In this document: in pieces, positions 45,609-52,549 of the stretch | Layout of the letters: the number at the start of each line of letters is the position of its first letter | Numbering within the stretch: the first letter of the stretch is position 1 | DNA from: Escherichia phage UPWr_E2 | Direction: 5' to 3' (one strand) | DNA length: 64,000 bases | Sequence record: PP418986.1 | The notes under the pieces: model-generated | The model's input: only the letters and a program-made list of their open reading frames with translations | Databases searched by the model: none | What the model was told of the DNA's origin: nothing | Made by a program: the position numbers and the translations under genes

Positions 45609-46637
<1,029 letters not shown>

Positions 46638-46638
<1 letters not shown>

Positions 46639-47186
46639 TGAAACAATACCAATTTTTAATTAAAGATATCCTGGAAAATGGCTACGAAACCGATGACCGA
46701 ACAGGCACAGGAACAATTGCTTTGTTCGGTACTAAATTACGCTGGGATTTAACTAAAGGTTTTCCTGCAGTAACAACTAAGAAGCTCGCCTGGAAAGCTT
46801 GCATTGCTGAGCTGCTTTGGTTTTTATCGGGAAGCACAAATGTCAATGATTTGCGATTAATTCAACATGATTCGTTAATCCAAGGCAAAACAGTTTGGGA
46901 TGAAAATTACGAAAATCAAGCAAAAGATTTAGGATACCATAGCGGTGAACTTGGTCCAATTTATGGAAAACAGTGGCGTGATTTTGGTGGCGTAGACCAA
47001 ATTATAGAAGTTATTGATCGTATTAAAAAATTGCCAAATGATAGGCGTCAAATTGTTTCAGCATGGAATCCAGCTGAACTCAAGCAGATGGCATTACCGC
47101 CTTGTCATATGTTCTATCAGTTTAATGTGCGTAATGGCTATTTGGATTTGCAGTGGTATCAACGATCAGTAGATGTTTTCTTGGGT
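46638..47186 (+). CDS. td: thymidylate synthase, exon 1
   Basis: Starts MKQYQFLIKDILENGYETDDRTGTGT; ends ...VFLG at the conserved CTTGGGT 5' splice site. Confidence 0.9.
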
Positions 47187-47506
47187 TAATTGAGGCCTGA
47201 GTATAAGGTGACTTATACTTGTAATCTATCTAAACGGGGAACCTCTCTAGTAGACAATCCCGTGCTAAATTGTAGGACTACCCTTTAATAATTTCATCAG
47301 GATTAGTTACTTATCGTGTAAAATCTGATAAATGGAATTGGTTCTACATAAATGCCTAACGACTATCCCTTTGGGGAGTAGGGTCAAGTGACTCGAAACG
47401 ATAGACAACTTGCTTTAACAAGTTGGAGATATAGTCTGATCTGCATGGTGACATGCAGCTGGATATAATTCCGGGGTAAGATTAACGACCTTATCTGAAC
47501 ATAATG
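47187..47506 (+). other. group I self-splicing intron in td, without homing-endonuclease ORF
   Basis: Starts TAATTGAGGCCTGAG, ends ...ACATAATG; joining exons restores a 286-aa TS frame; holds only the last ~19 codons of an I-TevI-like ORF. Confidence 0.85.
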
Positions 47507-47818
47507 CTTCCATTTAATATTGCATCATATGCTACGTTAGTTCATATTGTAGCTAAGATGTGTAATCTTATTCCGGGAGATTTGATATTTTCCGGTGGTA
47601 ATACTCATATCTATATGAATCACGTAGAACAATGTAAAGAAATTTTGCGTCGTGAACCTAAAGAGCTTTGTGAACTGGTAATAGGCGGATTGCCTTATAA
47701 ATTCCGCTATCTTTCTACTAAAGAACAATTGGAATACATTCTTAAACTCAGGCCTAAAGATTTCGTTCTCAAAGATTATCAGTCCCACGGCGTCTTGAAA
47801 GGAAAAATGGCGGTGTAA
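47507..47818 (+). CDS. td: thymidylate synthase, exon 2
   Basis: Continues LPFNIASYATLVHIVA... in frame with exon 1. Confidence 0.9.
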   Translation, partial: LPFNIASYATLVHIVAKMCNLIPGDLIFSGGNTHIYMNHVEQCKEILRREPKELCELVIGGLPYKFRYLSTKEQLEYILKLRPKDFVLKDYQSHGVLKGKMAV

Positions 47819-47841
47819 TTTTAATTTAATTGTGAGGATTT

Positions 47842-48105
47842 ATGATTTTACGATTTAAAGATACTTCTGGTGTAGTTCTTTTTACACTTCCTAACCCAAG
47901 TGAGTTAGAAGTTCCAGGACCAAATCAGCCTATTATCATTTATGGCAAAAAATATTATACTCATAAAATGACTCGTGAGTATTTTGATAATAAAATTTCC
48001 ACAGTTAAAACTTCTTCTGACTGTTACTACGATATTACTGTTTTAACGGAAAAACAATATGCCGAATTATCACCGCGCGGGCCGTCTATGTCGGGTAGTG
48101 AATAA
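47842..48105 (+). CDS. hypothetical protein
   Basis: 87-aa ORF with GAGGA SD. Confidence 0.45.
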
Positions 48106-48385
48106 ATACAAATCCGACTTTGATGTTAATATTCACCGTGGTACATTTTGGGGAAATTACGTCGGTAAAGATGCTGGCAGCCGGGAGGCTGCCATTGAAT
48201 TATTCAAAAAAGATTTTATACGTCGAATTAAATCCGGAGAAATAACTAAAGCACATTTAGAGCCTTTACGTGGAATGAGGCTAGGATGCACATGTAAACC
48301 AAAGCCGTGTCATGGTGATATAATAGCTCATATAGTTAACCGACTGTTTAAAGACGATTTTCAAGTTGAGGACTTATGCAATTAA
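48059..48385 (+). CDS. hypothetical protein
   Basis: 108-aa ORF overlapping upstream ORF; start uncertain. Confidence 0.35.
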
Positions 48386-50640
48386 TTAATGTTATCAAAA
48401 GTAGTGGTGTTTCTCAGAGCTTTGACCCGCAAAAAATTATTAAAGTTTTATCTTGGGCATCTGAGGGAACATCAGTAGATCCTTATGAATTATATGAAAA
48501 TATTAAATCATATCTCCGTGATGGAATGACAACTGATGACATTCAGACTATTGTCATTAAGGCTGCTGCGAATTCTATTTCGGTTGAAGAGCCTGATTAT
48601 CAATATGTAGCTGCACGCTGTTTAATGTTCGCTCTTCGTAAGCATGTTTATGGGCAGTATGAACCACGTTCATTTATTGACCATATTTCTTACTGTGTAA
48701 ATGAAGGTAAATATGACCCTGAATTATTGTCAAAATATTCAGCAGAAGAAATTACATTTTTAGAATCAAAAATTAAGCACGAGCGGGATATGGAATTTAC
48801 TTATTCCGGGGCGATGCAATTAAAAGAAAAATATCTAGTTAAAGATAAAACCACTGGTCAAATTTATGAAACTCCGCAGTTTGCATTTATGACTATTGGA
48901 ATGGCATTGCATCAAGATGAACCTGTTGATAGATTAAAACATGTTATTCGTTTTTATGAAGCAGTATCTACTCGACAGATTTCATTACCAACTCCTATTA
49001 TGGCTGGTTGCCGTACTCCAACTCGGCAGTTTAGTTCATGCGTTGTTATTGAGGCAGGCGATTCACTGAAGTCTATCAATAAGGCTTCTGCTTCAATTGT
49101 TGAATATATCTCTAAACGCGCTGGAATTGGTATTAACGTTGGTATGATTCGTGCTGAAGGTTCTAAGATTGGCATGGGTGAAGTGCGTCATACTGGTGTT
49201 ATTCCTTTTTGGAAACATTTTCAGACTGCTGTTAAATCATGCTCACAGGGTGGAATTCGTGGCGGCGCTGCTACTGCTTATTATCCTATTTGGCATTTGG
49301 AAGTTGAAAATCTTCTCGTTTTGAAAAATAACAAAGGCGTAGAAGAAAACCGCATTCGTCATATGGATTATGGTGTTCAGCTGAATGATTTGATGATGGA
49401 ACGATTCGGAAAGAACGATTACATTACTTTGTTCAGTCCGCATGAAATGGGTGGCGAGCTTTATTATTCTTATTTTAAAGACCAAAACCGTTTCCGTGAA
49501 TTATACGAAGCAGCAGAAAAAGACCCTAATATTCGTAAAAAGCGTATTAAAGCCCGTGAACTATTTGAATTGCTCATGACTGAACGTTCAGGAACCGCAA
49601 GGATTTATGTGCAGTTCATTGATAATACGAATAACTATACTCCGTTTATTCGTGAAAAGGCGCCTATTCGTCAGAGTAACTTGTGTTGTGAAATTGCTAT
49701 TCCAACAAATGATGTGAATAGTCCTGATGCTGAAATTGGATTGTGTACTCTCTCTGCATTCGTACTAGATAATTTTGACTGGCAAGACCAAGATAAAATT
49801 AATGAATTGGCAGAAGTTCAAGTTCGTGCTCTTGATAATCTGTTGGATTACCAAGGATATCCAGTTCCTGAAGCAGAAAAAGCTAAAAAGCGTCGTAACC
49901 TCGGTGTAGGTGTTACCAACTATGCAGCTTGGCTGGCAAGTAACTTTGCTTCTTATGAAGATGCTAATGATTTAACACATGAACTATTTGAGAGATTACA
50001 GTATGGACTCATTAAAGCATCCATTAAGCTCGCCAAAGAAAAAGGACCTTGCGAATATTATTCAGACACTCGTTGGTCTCGAGGCGAATTACCTATCGAC
50101 TGGTACAATAAAAAGATTGACCAAATCGCAGCTCCAAAATACGTTTGTGACTGGTCGGCGCTGCGGGAAGACCTTAAGCTCTTTGGCATCCGTAATAGCA
50201 CATTATCAGCACTTATGCCATGTGAGTCATCTTCCCAAGTTTCTAACAGTACAAACGGTATCGAGCCTCCACGTGGACCAGTCTCTGTTAAAGAATCAAA
50301 AGAGGGTTCCTTTAATCAAGTCGTGCCCAATATTGAACATAACATAGACCTATATGATTATACATGGAAATTAGCTAAGAAAGGTAATAAACCTTATCTT
50401 ACGCAGGTAGCTATTATGCTGAAATGGGTATGTCAATCAGCTTCAGCGAATACATATTATGACCCGCAGATTTTTCCAAAAGGAAAGGTTCCAATGTCAA
50501 TAATGATTGATGACATGCTATACGGATGGTATTATGGCATTAAAAACTTCTATTATCATAATACTCGTGATGGTTCCGGTACTGATGATTATGAAATAGA
50601 AACTCCAAAAGCCGATGATTGCGCAGCGTGTAAATTGTAA
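48376..50640 (+). CDS. nrdA: ribonucleotide reductase large subunit NrdA
   Basis: 754 aa; class Ia RNR alpha features; matches T4 NrdA. Confidence 0.95.
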   Translation: MQLINVIKSSGVSQSFDPQKIIKVLSWASEGTSVDPYELYENIKSYLRDGMTTDDIQTIVIKAAANSISVEEPDYQYVAARCLMFALRKHVYGQYEPRSFIDHISYCVNEGKYDPELLSKYSAEEITFLESKIKHERDMEFTYSGAMQLKEKYLVKDKTTGQIYETPQFAFMTIGMALHQDEPVDRLKHVIRFYEAVSTRQISLPTPIMAGCRTPTRQFSSCVVIEAGDSLKSINKASASIVEYISKRAGIGINVGMIRAEGSKIGMGEVRHTGVIPFWKHFQTAVKSCSQGGIRGGAATAYYPIWHLEVENLLVLKNNKGVEENRIRHMDYGVQLNDLMMERFGKNDYITLFSPHEMGGELYYSYFKDQNRFRELYEAAEKDPNIRKKRIKARELFELLMTERSGTARIYVQFIDNTNNYTPFIREKAPIRQSNLCCEIAIPTNDVNSPDAEIGLCTLSAFVLDNFDWQDQDKINELAEVQVRALDNLLDYQGYPVPEAEKAKKRRNLGVGVTNYAAWLASNFASYEDANDLTHELFERLQYGLIKASIKLAKEKGPCEYYSDTRWSRGELPIDWYNKKIDQIAAPKYVCDWSALREDLKLFGIRNSTLSALMPCESSSQVSNSTNGIEPPRGPVSVKESKEGSFNQVVPNIEHNIDLYDYTWKLAKKGNKPYLTQVAIMLKWVCQSASANTYYDPQIFPKGKVPMSIMIDDMLYGWYYGIKNFYYHNTRDGSGTDDYEIETPKADDCAACKL

Positions 50641-51371
50641 TGAATTATCAAAAAATCTATAACGACCTAATTTCCCGAGCTCAGGCTCGGGAATCTTTAC
50701 TAGAATATAAAGAGACACATCATATAATCCCTAAATGTATGGGAGGTTCTGATGATAAGGAAAATTTAGTTGAATTAACAGCCAGAGAACATTTTATAGC
50801 TCATCTATTACTATGTAAGATAAATGAAGGCCATTTTGGTCTTGCCTCTGCGTTAACGTTGATGGCAACAGATAAAGCTGGCAATAGAATTAATAACAGA
50901 TTGTACAGCTTACACAGAAAATTATTTGCTAAAGCTAATTCTGAGTTCTTTAAGAAATATTGGAAAAATAATCCTCATCCTAAAGGGATGCTAGGCAAGC
51001 ATCATAAAAACGAAACTAAACAGCATGTATCTAACGTGAATAGATATGCGTGCCCATCTGTAGAAATACATAAATTCTCATTAGATGGGGATTTCATAGA
51101 AACCTTTCACTCTATTGCGGCAGCGTCCCGGTCAGTTAATGGAAACGGGTCAAATATCAAATATTGTGCCGAGGGTAAATTTCAATATGCTTATGGATTT
51201 AGATGGTCATATCAACTTGATGCAAAGTTTGACAAAATAAAACCAAGAGATTATAAAGGAATCCGCGGTAAGAAATGGATTAATAATGGAAGTGAATGCA
51301 CGCTTATAGGTAAAGATGATATTATACCGCCAGGTTGGAAACGCGGCAGAATTTTAAAGAGGAAAAATTAA
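50640..51371 (+). CDS. mobE: HNH homing endonuclease (MobE-like)
   Basis: 243 aa; HNH motif HHIIPKCMGGSDDKENLVELTAREHFIAH; between nrdA and nrdB. Confidence 0.7.
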   Translation: MNYQKIYNDLISRAQARESLLEYKETHHIIPKCMGGSDDKENLVELTAREHFIAHLLLCKINEGHFGLASALTLMATDKAGNRINNRLYSLHRKLFAKANSEFFKKYWKNNPHPKGMLGKHHKNETKQHVSNVNRYACPSVEIHKFSLDGDFIETFHSIAAASRSVNGNGSNIKYCAEGKFQYAYGFRWSYQLDAKFDKIKPRDYKGIRGKKWINNGSECTLIGKDDIIPPGWKRGRILKRKN

Positions 51372-52549
51372 TGTCTACAGTTTTTAATACAAATCCAGTT
51401 GATGTTTTAAAAGAACCTATGTTTTTTGGTTCAGGTCTTGGTATTGCGCGTTATGATATTCAACGTCATAAAGTTTTTGAAGATTTAACCGAAAAGCAGT
51501 TGTCATTTTTCTGGCGTCCTGAAGAAGTAAACTTAATGATGGATGCTGCACAGTTTAATAAGCTTCCTCAGTACCAGCAAAATATTTTTACTAACAACCT
51601 GAAGTATCAATCACTTTTAGATAGCATTCAGGGTCGTGCGCCGTCTGCTGTACTTATGTCATTAATTTCAGACCCAAGTCTTGATACATGGGTTGCTACA
51701 TGGACTTTTAGTGAAACTATTCACAGTCGTTCATATACTCATATCATGCGAAATCTTTATACTGATCCATCGAAGGTATTTGATGAGATTGTATTAGATG
51801 AAGCTATTATGAAACGTGCTGAATCCATTGGACGTTATTATGATGATGTTCTGATTAAAACTCGTTATTGGGAAAACGCTAAAGCTGATATCGAATACCA
51901 AAAAGAAATTAATGCAGACGAAGACGTTATTGAAGATGCTATTGAGCATGAGACATATTGGAAGCGTGAGCTAATGAAATCTCTTTACCTCTGTTTGCAT
52001 GTAATCAACGCATTGGAAGCTATTCGTTTTTATGTATCTTTTGCATGTACCTTTAACTTCCATAAGAACATGGAAATCATGGAAGGTAATGCCAAGATTA
52101 TGAAGTTCATTGCACGCGATGAACAGCTTCACCTTAAAGGCACCCAATATATTATTCGTCAACTTCAACTTGGCACTGACGGCGATGAATGGGTTAAAAT
52201 TGCTCAAGAGTGCGAGCAAGAAGCAGTTGATATTTTCATGGAAGTTAACCGCCAAGAAAAAGATTGGGCAGTTCATTTATTTAAAGATGGCGATGTTCCT
52301 GGATTAAATACAAATAGCATGTGGAGCTTTATTGATTACTTAACTGTATCTCGTATGAAACAGTGTGGTCTTCCATGCCCGATTACCGATGCTCCGGTTA
52401 AACATCCATATCCTTGGATTCGTGAATACCTTAATTCTGATAATGTTCAATCCGCGCCGCAAGAAGTAGAACTGTCATCTTATCTTGTTGCACAGATTGA
52501 TAATGATGTTGATGATAAAGTTATGATGAGTTTTAAAAAATACTTTTAA
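51371..52549 (+). CDS. nrdB: ribonucleotide reductase small subunit NrdB (intronless)
   Basis: 392 aa from MSTVFNTNPVDVLKEPMFF; single continuous ORF. Confidence 0.95.
   Translation: MSTVFNTNPVDVLKEPMFFGSGLGIARYDIQRHKVFEDLTEKQLSFFWRPEEVNLMMDAAQFNKLPQYQQNIFTNNLKYQSLLDSIQGRAPSAVLMSLISDPSLDTWVATWTFSETIHSRSYTHIMRNLYTDPSKVFDEIVLDEAIMKRAESIGRYYDDVLIKTRYWENAKADIEYQKEINADEDVIEDAIEHETYWKRELMKSLYLCLHVINALEAIRFYVSFACTFNFHKNMEIMEGNAKIMKFIARDEQLHLKGTQYIIRQLQLGTDGDEWVKIAQECEQEAVDIFMEVNRQEKDWAVHLFKDGDVPGLNTNSMWSFIDYLTVSRMKQCGLPCPITDAPVKHPYPWIREYLNSDNVQSAPQEVELSSYLVAQIDNDVDDKVMMSFKKYF

What the first reader, a model, noticed from the sequence alone, without database searches (positions are those of the whole stretch)
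47187..47506. td group I intron has lost its homing-endonuclease ORF but keeps the ORF's 3' end
Thymidylate synthase is split after CTTGGGT (47186) and resumes at 47507; the 320-nt insert has the recalled T4 td intron ends (TAATTGAGGCCTGAG... and ...ACATAATG). It has no long ORF, yet 47306-47362 still encodes LVTYRVKSDKWNWFYINA-stop, matching the C-terminus of I-TevI as I recall it. This looks like an internal deletion of the endonuclease gene from an otherwise intact ribozyme, the loss phase of the homing cycle. nrdB in this window is intronless.
Basis: partly seen in the sequence, partly recalled or inferred. Interest (0 to 1): 0.6.

Follow-up and report, generated by a model that had tools for sequence, protein, structure and literature searches.

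The report
td intron that lost its endonuclease
The thymidylate synthase gene of this T4-like phage carries the classic self-splicing td intron with its homing-endonuclease gene cleanly deleted, a real but already familiar stage in the decay of a selfish genetic element.

Summary
The window is Yersinia phage PYps55T (a Tequatrovirus). Its td gene is split at exactly the T4 site: exon 1 is 46638-47186, a 320-nt group I intron is 47187-47506, and exon 2 is 47507-47818.

The intron is the T4 td intron minus 696 bp. That deletion removes the I-TevI late-promoter/RBS region and codons 1-223.

All 14 ribozyme helices are intact. The last 19 nt of the remnant (47341-47359) are themselves the 3' strands of P6a and P6 plus J6/7, which explains part of the retention. 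The other 50 nt are leftover: other ORF-less alleles lack them.

The same junction occurs in 16 GenBank records, and at least four other ORF-less alleles with different breakpoints exist. SNPs hugging the junction match a divergent full-length intron (phage sutha), so the allele is an older deletion now sitting in a mosaic background.

Naturally deleted endonuclease genes in T-even introns are already documented, and laboratory ORF-less td introns splice. This is a well-supported but ordinary finding. Splicing itself could not be tested here.

The parts
46638..47186 (+). td exon 1 (549 nt, 183 codons), ending in the UUGGGU that forms P1
   Evidence: Same exon length and junction as T4.
47187..47506 (+). 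ORF-less td group I intron, 320 nt
   Evidence: Rfam RF00028 at 66.9 bits. 3 mismatches to the PYPS2T intron and 7 to the T4 intron outside the deletion.
47507..47818 (+). td exon 2 (312 nt including the stop)
   Evidence: The spliced product is 286 aa.
47181..47200 (+). P1: exon UUGGGU (47181-47186) paired with the internal guide GCCUGA (47195-47200). The U47186·G47195 wobble marks the 5' splice site.
   Evidence: P1 variants in other alleles (U-A/U·G, G·U/A-U) all keep the pairing.
47201..47265 (+). P2 (47201-07/47212-18); the 5' strand of P3 (47225-30); P4 (47235-39/47258-62); P5 (47244-46/47252-54); the 5' strand of P6 (47264-65, equivalent to T4 G78-C79)
   Evidence: PMC2729099 for the G78-C865 pair of P6.
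47272..47278 (+). P6a 5' strand GUAGGAC, pairing with 47341-47347
47289..47292 (+). Deletion junction. The AA at 47290-47291 is shared microhomology. The I-TevI late-promoter/operator region, RBS and codons 1-223 are missing.
   Evidence: The 5' context is TTTAATAA|ATAC and the 3' context is TTTTAAAA|TTTC (TTTTGAAA in sutha).
47291..47359 (+). I-TevI remnant: codons 224-245 (ISSGLVTYRVKSDKWNWFYINA) plus the TAA stop. There is no in-frame start codon after the upstream stop.
47341..47359 (+). The part of the remnant that doubles as ribozyme: P6a 3' strand (47341-47), P6 3' strand (47354-55) and J6/7
   Evidence: [quoted passage not shown]
47361..47506 (+). 3' core: P7 (47361-66/47431-36, pseudoknotted with P3, whose 3' strand is 47400-05); P7.1 (47367-69/47374-76); P7.2 (47381-85/47390-94); P8 (47406-12/47419-25); P9 (47441-47/47452-58); P9.1 (47459-63/47470-74); P9.2 (47475-80/47490-95); terminal G at 47506
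   Evidence: Identical to the PYPS2T full-length intron over this stretch.

Best explanation
This is the phage T4-type td group I intron (subgroup IA2 from my own knowledge, not tested here) after a single illegitimate-recombination deletion of 696 bp. The deletion lies inside the loop of helix P6a. It removed the I-TevI homing-endonuclease gene from its late promoter/operator and ribosome-binding site through codon 223.

The ribozyme is untouched, so the intron should still excise itself from td pre-mRNA and give a normal 286-aa thymidylate synthase. This step is inferred, not shown.

Without I-TevI the intron can no longer cut intronless td alleles, so it cannot home on its own. It can only be inherited vertically or by ordinary recombination. 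Because the intron still splits the I-TevI recognition site, this td allele should stay resistant to I-TevI from co-infecting phages. That rests on established knowledge of homing and was not tested here.

The last 19 nt of the surviving I-TevI tail are kept because they are the 3' strands of P6a and P6. The preceding 50 nt are neutral leftover fixed by where the breakpoint happened to fall.

The deletion arose once, in an intron lineage like that of phage sutha. It has since spread or been patched by recombination into several T4-like backgrounds, including this PYPS2T-like one.
For: Identity and breakpoints:
- 100% identity to PYps55T, and 99.4% to siblings that carry 696 extra bases at this site.
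- A single gap with 3 mismatches to PYPS2T and 7 to T4, visible in the multiple alignments.

Intact ribozyme:
- Rfam hit above the gathering score.
- The MFE fold recovers P2-P9.1.
- All 75 pairs of P1-P9.2 are standard pairs in the window.
- Across 13 natural alleles 99.8% of cells pair, with compensatory double changes in P7.2, P8 and P9.2, against 29-45% pairing in slid controls.
- The 3' core is base-for-base the same as in PYPS2T, which keeps an intact I-TevI.

No endonuclease:
- Only residues 224-245 remain, there is no start codon in frame, and there is no other copy in the window.

Single origin and mosaicism:
- The identical junction was verified in HP3, Elenatom, Pinarejo and 235Ecol030PP, and 16 records give a single-piece full-length match.
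- The variants at 47280, 47296 and 47299 are those of the full-length sutha intron. Both remnant changes are synonymous in the I-TevI frame, so they predate the deletion.

Literature:
- Most of the ORF lies in a non-essential loop and its 3' end contributes core nucleotides (PMC2988022).
- td introns with shortened P6a fold or self-splice (PMC2729099).
- The laboratory deletion tdΔ1-3 cuts homing from 33% to 1% (PMC1865063).
Against: Splicing of this allele was not observed; it is inferred from sequence identity and from laboratory deletions with different end points. The percentage-paired figure is inflated because the structure was written from the window's own sequence, so only the compensatory changes are independent evidence. 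The single-origin claim rests on five sequences inspected directly plus BLAST summaries for the rest. Resistance to I-TevI is assumed from the homing literature.
Confidence: 0.9

Rival explanations
1. This is an ancestral ORF-less intron that never contained I-TevI. The full-length form would then be the derived state, after endonuclease-gene invasion of the P6a loop.
For: Shorter ORF-less td introns exist whose P6a is closed by a neat tetraloop (262-nt allele, GUAGGAC-UUUG-GUUCUAC) or replaced by a small hairpin (254-nt allele). Those could in principle be pre-invasion forms.
Against: The 320-nt allele holds 66 nt that read in frame as I-TevI residues 224-245 at 22/22 identity. Of these, 47 nt lie outside any ribozyme helix. 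It also holds the first part of the sequence upstream of the I-TevI start, up to the middle of the TTTAATAAATA stretch. An intron that never held the gene would carry neither. Its two remnant differences from T4 are synonymous in the I-TevI frame and are shared with a full-length allele.
Confidence: 0.02
2. The short intron is an assembly or sequencing artefact: a collapsed region in one genome record.
For: Seven other Y. pseudotuberculosis phage isolates with PYps/PYPS names (PYPS2T, PYps5T, 10T, 11T, 14T, 15T, 35T) all carry the full-length intron.
Against: The identical 320-nt intron (100% identity) is in Escherichia phages Shinka, 101112UKE3-1 and MLP2. Close variants are in about a dozen further records from several countries (Germany, Poland and the USA among those checked). 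No repeat that could collapse an assembly flanks the junction; there are only 2 nt of microhomology.
Confidence: 0.01
3. The intron is a splicing-dead relic and td is a pseudogene in this phage, which would rely on the host thyA.
For: td is dispensable for T4 in thyA+ hosts (established knowledge). Splicing was not measured here.
Against: Both exons are open and conserved. Every core pair is intact, and the 3' core is identical to that of introns with a live I-TevI. The allele persists with few changes in many independent isolates. Laboratory td introns with shortened P6a regions fold or self-splice (PMC2729099).
Confidence: 0.05
4. Loss of I-TevI is positively selected rather than neutral decay. 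The ORF-less intron would be kept as a cheap 'vaccination' of td against I-TevI cleavage, while removing the cost that I-TevI translation imposes on splicing.
For: At least five different ORF-less alleles all keep the ribozyme. They total about 35 of roughly 230 intron-bearing GenBank records. Premature I-TevI translation lowers td splicing and gives a thymidine-dependent phenotype (PMC2988022). Intronless targets remain abundant, so decay through lack of targets alone is an incomplete explanation.
Against: There is no fitness or cross data. Full-length introns still outnumber deleted ones by about 6 to 1. Recurrent deletion is equally expected under neutrality for a 700-bp dispensable loop. 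Database counts are biased by duplicate records and sampling.
Confidence: 0.2

Closest known systems
Phage T4 td group I intron with I-TevI (NC_000866, td join 143235..145112)
   Same: Same host gene and same insertion site after codon 183. Same 5' and 3' ends. The same P1-P9.2 core, with 7 substitutions outside the deletion.
   Different: T4's intron is 1017 nt and encodes the 245-aa GIY-YIG endonuclease I-TevI in the P6a loop. Here 697 nt of that loop are gone and only codons 224-245 remain.
Laboratory ORF-deleted td introns (tdΔ1-3, shortened-P6a constructs, P6a-permuted td intron)
   Same: The endonuclease loop is removed and the core kept. Such constructs fold or splice (PMC2729099, PMC8554844) and tdΔ1-3 is nearly homing-dead (PMC1865063).
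   Different: Those are engineered with other end points. This is a natural allele with its own junction (47289-47292), found in many wild isolates.
T4 nrdB intron with the internally deleted, defunct I-TevIII (intact in phage RB3)
   Same: A natural internal deletion of the intron-encoded endonuclease in a T-even phage, leaving a non-mobile intron (PMC2790892, PMC1865063, PMC2993671 citing Eddy & Gold 1991).
   Different: A different gene (nrdB), endonuclease family (HNH) and deletion. The nrdB gene in this window has no intron at all.
Other natural ORF-less td alleles in GenBank
   Same: Same intron, same td site, ribozyme retained. Examples: G28-type 445 nt, Klebsiella phage EI 315 nt, 215Ecol030PP/BYEP01 262-263 nt, CJY920-type 254 nt.
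   Different: Independent breakpoints. G28-type is joined at CATTTTAAA and keeps the start of the ORF. EI is joined at GGAAT and keeps the ATG plus about 5 codons. The 262- and 254-nt forms lack the 47291-47340 equivalent entirely.

Membership tests
Group I intron (Rfam RF00028), T4 td type | Covariance-model score above the curated gathering threshold | tested here: met
   66.9 bits against 50, E = 8.5e-15, model positions 1-253 of 253.
Group I intron (Rfam RF00028), T4 td type | P1 formed by the 5' exon and the internal guide sequence, with a U·G wobble at the 5' splice site | tested here: met
   47181-86 pairs with 47195-200, with U47186·G47195. All variants in 13 alleles keep the pairing.
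Group I intron (Rfam RF00028), T4 td type | Conserved core P3-P8 including the P3/P7 pseudoknot | tested here: met
   All pairs are standard in the window. P3, P4, P5, P6 and P7 are invariant, and P7.2 and P8 show compensatory changes across natural alleles. The P7 sequence is identical to T4.
Group I intron (Rfam RF00028), T4 td type | Terminal guanosine at the 3' splice site | tested here: met
   G at 47506, in ...ACAUAAUG|CUU.
Group I intron (Rfam RF00028), T4 td type | Insertion at the T4 td site with exons that join in frame | tested here: met
   Exon 1 is 549 nt and exon 2 is 312 nt, as in T4. The joined ORF is 286 aa.
Group I intron (Rfam RF00028), T4 td type | Self-splicing activity | not testable with these tools
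   Needs RT-PCR, RNA-seq or in vitro splicing.
I-TevI (GIY-YIG homing endonuclease) | N-terminal GIY-YIG catalytic domain | tested here: not met
   tblastn of T4 I-TevI finds only residues 224-245 in the window.
I-TevI (GIY-YIG homing endonuclease) | A translatable ORF with a start codon and RBS | tested here: not met
   No ATG, GTG or TTG between the upstream in-frame stop and the remnant. No ORF is listed in that frame. The AAAGAGG RBS and the ATG lie within the deleted segment.
Mobile (homing-competent) group I intron | A functional endonuclease in cis that cuts the intronless allele | tested here: not met
   The gene is absent. A trans-acting helper was not tested. An HNH endonuclease gene lies 3.1 kb downstream but its target is unknown.

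The most novel reading that the evidence does not exclude
ORF-less td introns may be maintained by selection rather than being decaying relics. On this reading they act as a low-cost resistance allele that blocks I-TevI cleavage of td while avoiding the splicing penalty of I-TevI translation. Their recurrent, independent origin (at least five junctions) and their spread into unrelated backgrounds by short recombination patches would reflect that advantage.
Probability: 0.2. Interest if true: 0.45.

Novelty: already known. Interest (0 to 1): 0.15.

Why it matters
It is a clean natural example of the stage where a homing endonuclease gene is lost while its host ribozyme survives, in the best-studied mobile-intron system. 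Its practical value is mostly for annotation. In PYps55T and most other carriers, td is deposited as two separate 'thymidylate synthase' CDSs with no intron feature, and some records call spurious ORFs inside the intron. The allele series in GenBank (320, 445, 315, 262 and 254 nt) could support a population study of endonuclease loss. The phenomenon itself is not new.

Tried and rejected
- **2004 survey paper.** I tried to read the T-even intron survey (Sandegren & Sjöberg, JBC 279:22218) and the SegH/Hef paper. Neither is held, so what I say about the 2004 paper rests on my own recollection of its abstract.
- **2004 GenBank submissions.** I looked for that study's td submissions to see whether a deleted allele was deposited then. 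AY262150-152 and AY262154 are not in the collection. AY262153 is 1877 nt, the same length as the full-length LZ2 and U5 td records.
- **IMG/VR junction search.** The exact deletion junction gave 0 hits. A control search with a core 32-mer found only one contig, with a full-length intron, so that collection says nothing about prevalence.
- **Promoter/terminator scan.** The sigma-70 and terminator scan of 46300-48000 gave no more sites than shuffles. It is not designed for T4 late promoters.
- **Translated remnant.** I considered a translated micro-ORF or a DNA-binding fragment from the remnant. I rejected it because there is no start codon in frame and only 22 of 245 residues remain.
- **Other rejected readings.** An assembly artefact and a never-invaded intron are both rejected; see the rival explanations.

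Full report
**What the window is**

The region 45800-49000 is 100% identical to Yersinia phage PYps55T (MT515756.1), genus Tequatrovirus. It was isolated in Germany from bird-of-prey faeces on Y. pseudotuberculosis. Gene order around the finding is as in T4: frd, td, nrdA.2-like, nrdA.1-like, nrdA, nrdB.

**Checking the observation**

- The td ORF starts at 46638 and runs to ...TTCTTGGGT at 47186.
- The insert 47187-47506 begins TAATTGAGGCCTGAG and ends ACATAATG.
- The frame resumes at 47507 (CTT CCA TTT ...) and runs to the stop at 47818.
- Joining the exons gives a 286-aa thymidylate synthase, identical to T4's at 273 of 287 positions counting the stop.
- Rfam's group I intron model (RF00028) matches 47177-47458 over its full length, at 66.9 bits against a gathering score of 50. 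It is the only Rfam family found in the 64 kb.
- The insert has no ORF in the I-TevI frame.
- tblastn with T4 I-TevI finds exactly one segment in the window: residues 224-245 at 47291-47356, 22/22 identical, followed by TAA at 47357-47359.

The string LVTYRV...INA-stop is at 47303-47359, and four more codons (ISSG) survive upstream. nrdB (51335-52549) is uninterrupted.

**Mapping the deletion**

Against the T4 intron (1017 nt) and the intron of the closest full-length relative, PYPS2T (1016 nt), the 320-nt insert aligns as two blocks with one gap. The gap is 697 bp against T4 and 696 bp against PYPS2T. There are 7 and 3 mismatches respectively.

The junction falls at 47289-47292. The two bases AA (47290-47291) can be assigned to either side. 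The flanks form only an imperfect repeat, TTTAATAA versus TTTTAAAA. This looks like illegitimate recombination or replication slippage at minimal microhomology.

The deleted block begins inside the TTTAATAAATA stretch just upstream of the I-TevI start. According to the T4 mobile-DNA review, that is where the I-TevI late promoter and its overlapping autorepression operator lie (PMC2988022). The block takes out the RBS, the ATG and codons 1-223.

**Is the ribozyme intact?**

I wrote out P1-P9.2 on the window sequence, including the P3/P7 pseudoknot. For this I used the Rfam alignment, the MFE fold (which recovers P2 through P9.1 on its own) and the published P6 pair G78-C865 (PMC2729099). That pair maps to 47264-47355.

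All 75 pairs are standard pairs in the window. I then aligned 13 natural alleles with the ORF loop trimmed. Five carry the ORF (T4, PYPS2T, sutha, U5, Salmonella phage CGG4-1) and eight are ORF-less. On that alignment:
- 99.8% of cells pair, against 29-45% when partners are slid by 1-3 columns.
- Five pairs in P7.2, P8 and P9.2 show changes on both sides.

The percentage is biased because the structure was derived from the window. The compensatory changes are not.

More simply, from 47300 to the 3' end the window is base-for-base identical to the PYPS2T intron, which still carries an intact I-TevI gene.

Published work supports the same conclusion. td introns with shortened or permuted P6a loops fold and splice (PMC2729099, PMC8554844). 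The review states that most of the ORF sits in a non-essential loop while its 3' end contributes nucleotides to critical structures (PMC2988022). I therefore infer that this intron splices, but that was not shown here.

The remnant has two parts.
- **47341-47359** (GTTCTACATAAATGCCTAA, the tail of the Trp codon then F Y I N A stop) is the 3' strand of P6a (47341-47347), the 3' strand of P6 (47354-47355) and J6/7. It cannot be lost without breaking the ribozyme.
- **47291-47340** lies outside any core helix. It is absent from the 262/263-nt, 254-nt and 315-nt alleles. It is simply what the breakpoint left behind.

In the MFE fold this leftover extends P6a as a long imperfect hairpin. It cannot be translated. 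The frame has a stop just upstream and no ATG, GTG or TTG after it.

**History of the allele**

The same 320-nt intron gives a single-piece, full-length match in 16 GenBank records (H1-6, 9, 14-22). These include some duplicates and HP3 derivatives. I checked the junction directly in HP3, Elenatom, Pinarejo and 235Ecol030PP, and it is identical.

The three positions where the window differs from PYPS2T (47280, 47296, 47299) hug the junction. They carry the bases found in all other 320-nt carriers and in the full-length intron of phage sutha. Sutha's I-TevI is 217/245 identical to T4's. The two changes inside the remnant are synonymous in the I-TevI frame (TCG to TCA and TCT to TCA). That fits inheritance from a working sutha-like gene rather than change after the deletion.

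Further out, the window carries PYPS2T/T4-type bases where HP3-type carriers have sutha-type or private ones (intron positions 13-14 and 54, the T/C about 14 nt past 47299, and the end of P8). So this copy is a mosaic: a short sutha-type patch containing the deletion, inside a PYPS2T-like intron and exons. The deletion is therefore old relative to this phage and has been moved or patched by recombination.

Signs of drift appear in some carriers. 235Ecol030PP has lost one more base in the remnant. Elenatom has an extra remnant substitution and a mismatch in P9.1.

**Population context**

GenBank holds at least four further ORF-less td alleles with different junctions:

| Allele | Length | Records | Junction or feature |
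|---|---|---|---|
| G28-type | 445 nt | 8 | joined at a CATTTTAAA repeat |
| Klebsiella phage EI | 315 nt | 1 | joined at GGAAT; keeps the ATG and about five codons |
| 215Ecol030PP/BYEP01-type | 262-263 nt | 5 | P6a closed by UUUG |
| CJY920-type | 254 nt | 5 | P6a replaced by GUUC-UUUU-GAAC |

With the 16 records of the 320-nt allele, that makes about 35 ORF-less records. About 197 records hold a near-full-length intron.

A spliced exon-junction query matches 575 records. Of these, 402 cover it in one place. Subtracting the short-intron records leaves roughly 365 intronless td genes.

These counts are rough because of duplicate records, sampling bias and megablast sensitivity. They do show that intronless targets are still the majority. 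The classical picture of endonuclease decay after the population saturates (summarised in PMC5009752) fits only in a local sense.

An alternative is that losing I-TevI is mildly advantageous, because its translation interferes with splicing (PMC2988022), while the intron still protects the site. I cannot test this and give it about 0.2.

**Comparison with what is known**

Natural inactivating deletions of intron endonuclease genes in T-even phages are textbook material. The T4 nrdB intron carries a deleted I-TevIII that is intact in RB3 (PMC2790892, PMC1865063, PMC2993671).

From my own recollection of its abstract, the 2004 survey by Sandegren and Sjöberg reported that several of the intron endonuclease genes had suffered deletions. 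I could not read that paper here.

ORF-less td introns are standard laboratory tools. The tdΔ1-3 deletion lowers homing from 33% to 1% (PMC1865063). The identical sequence is already public. I therefore rate this as already known, correctly read by the first stage, and of low interest.

**What led nowhere**

See the separate 'tried and rejected' field: unavailable papers and accessions, uninformative IMG/VR scans, and a promoter/terminator scan with nothing above background.

Noticed in passing
window 50640-51371 (+): A 243-aa free-standing HNH homing endonuclease gene (Pfam HNH plus NUMOD1; phrog_655 'homing endonuclease', E = 3e-57) sits between nrdA and nrdB, where T4 has mobE and nrdB.1. 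Its 3' end overlaps the listed nrdB ORF. It may be the Hef-type gene reported to replace mobE in some T4 relatives, but I did not verify that or its target.
   Followed up: partly
window 46432-46638 (+): A 68-aa ORF lies between frd and td, overlapping both ends by 1-4 nt. T4 has no counterpart there, since its frd and td overlap directly. It matches phrog_9550 (unknown function, E = 1e-45) and has no Pfam hit. The homolog in PYPS2T is annotated 'flagellar biosynthesis protein', which looks spurious.
   Followed up: partly
L003 (T4), L002 (PYPS2T), L013 (sutha), L004 (G28) versus L005, L006, L007, L009: At gathering threshold, Rfam's group I intron model detects the four short ORF-less td introns scanned (254-320 nt, 63.8-75.7 bits). 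It misses the full-length T4, PYPS2T and sutha introns and the 445-nt G28 intron. The canonical ORF-containing td intron is therefore invisible to a default Rfam scan.
   Followed up: partly
GenBank records behind L001, L010, L011, L007: Annotation problems. PYps55T and most carriers list td as two unrelated 'thymidylate synthase' CDSs with no intron feature. Elenatom and Pinarejo call three 32-33-aa 'hypothetical proteins' inside the intron. Klebsiella phage EI notes 'with intron of plasmid pMTL007C-E2', probably (my guess) because that plasmid carries a td-derived intron.
   Followed up: no
L006 701-954 (CJY920; also N2, 236Ecol005PP, HMD-9, GRNsp7) and L005/L008 (215Ecol030PP, BYEP01): Two minimal natural td introns. 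In the 254-nt form, P6a is replaced by an unrelated hairpin, GUUC-UUUU-GAAC. In the 262/263-nt form, P6a is closed by a UUUG tetraloop. Whether these are secondary trimmings or pre-invasion forms of the intron is unresolved.
   Followed up: partly
L007 701-1015 (Klebsiella phage EI): A td intron about 90% identical to the coliphage one sits at the same td site in a Klebsiella phage classified in a different genus (Marfavirus). It has its own I-TevI deletion. This suggests the intron has crossed genus and host boundaries, or is old.
   Followed up: partly
window 47507-47509 versus T4: Exon 2 starts CUU here (also in PYPS2T and HP3) but CUA in T4. With the guide-loop GAG, this could give a 3-pair P10 (C-G, U-A, U·G) instead of T4's 2 pairs. 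Sutha, EI and CGG4-1 pair CUA with a changed guide, UAG. This possible exon-guide co-variation was not analysed further.
   Followed up: no
L002 3773-4897 (PYPS2T nrdA): In PYPS2T, nrdA is annotated as two overlapping CDSs. This looks like a frameshift or sequencing error. In the window nrdA is a single 754-aa ORF (48376-50640).
   Followed up: no
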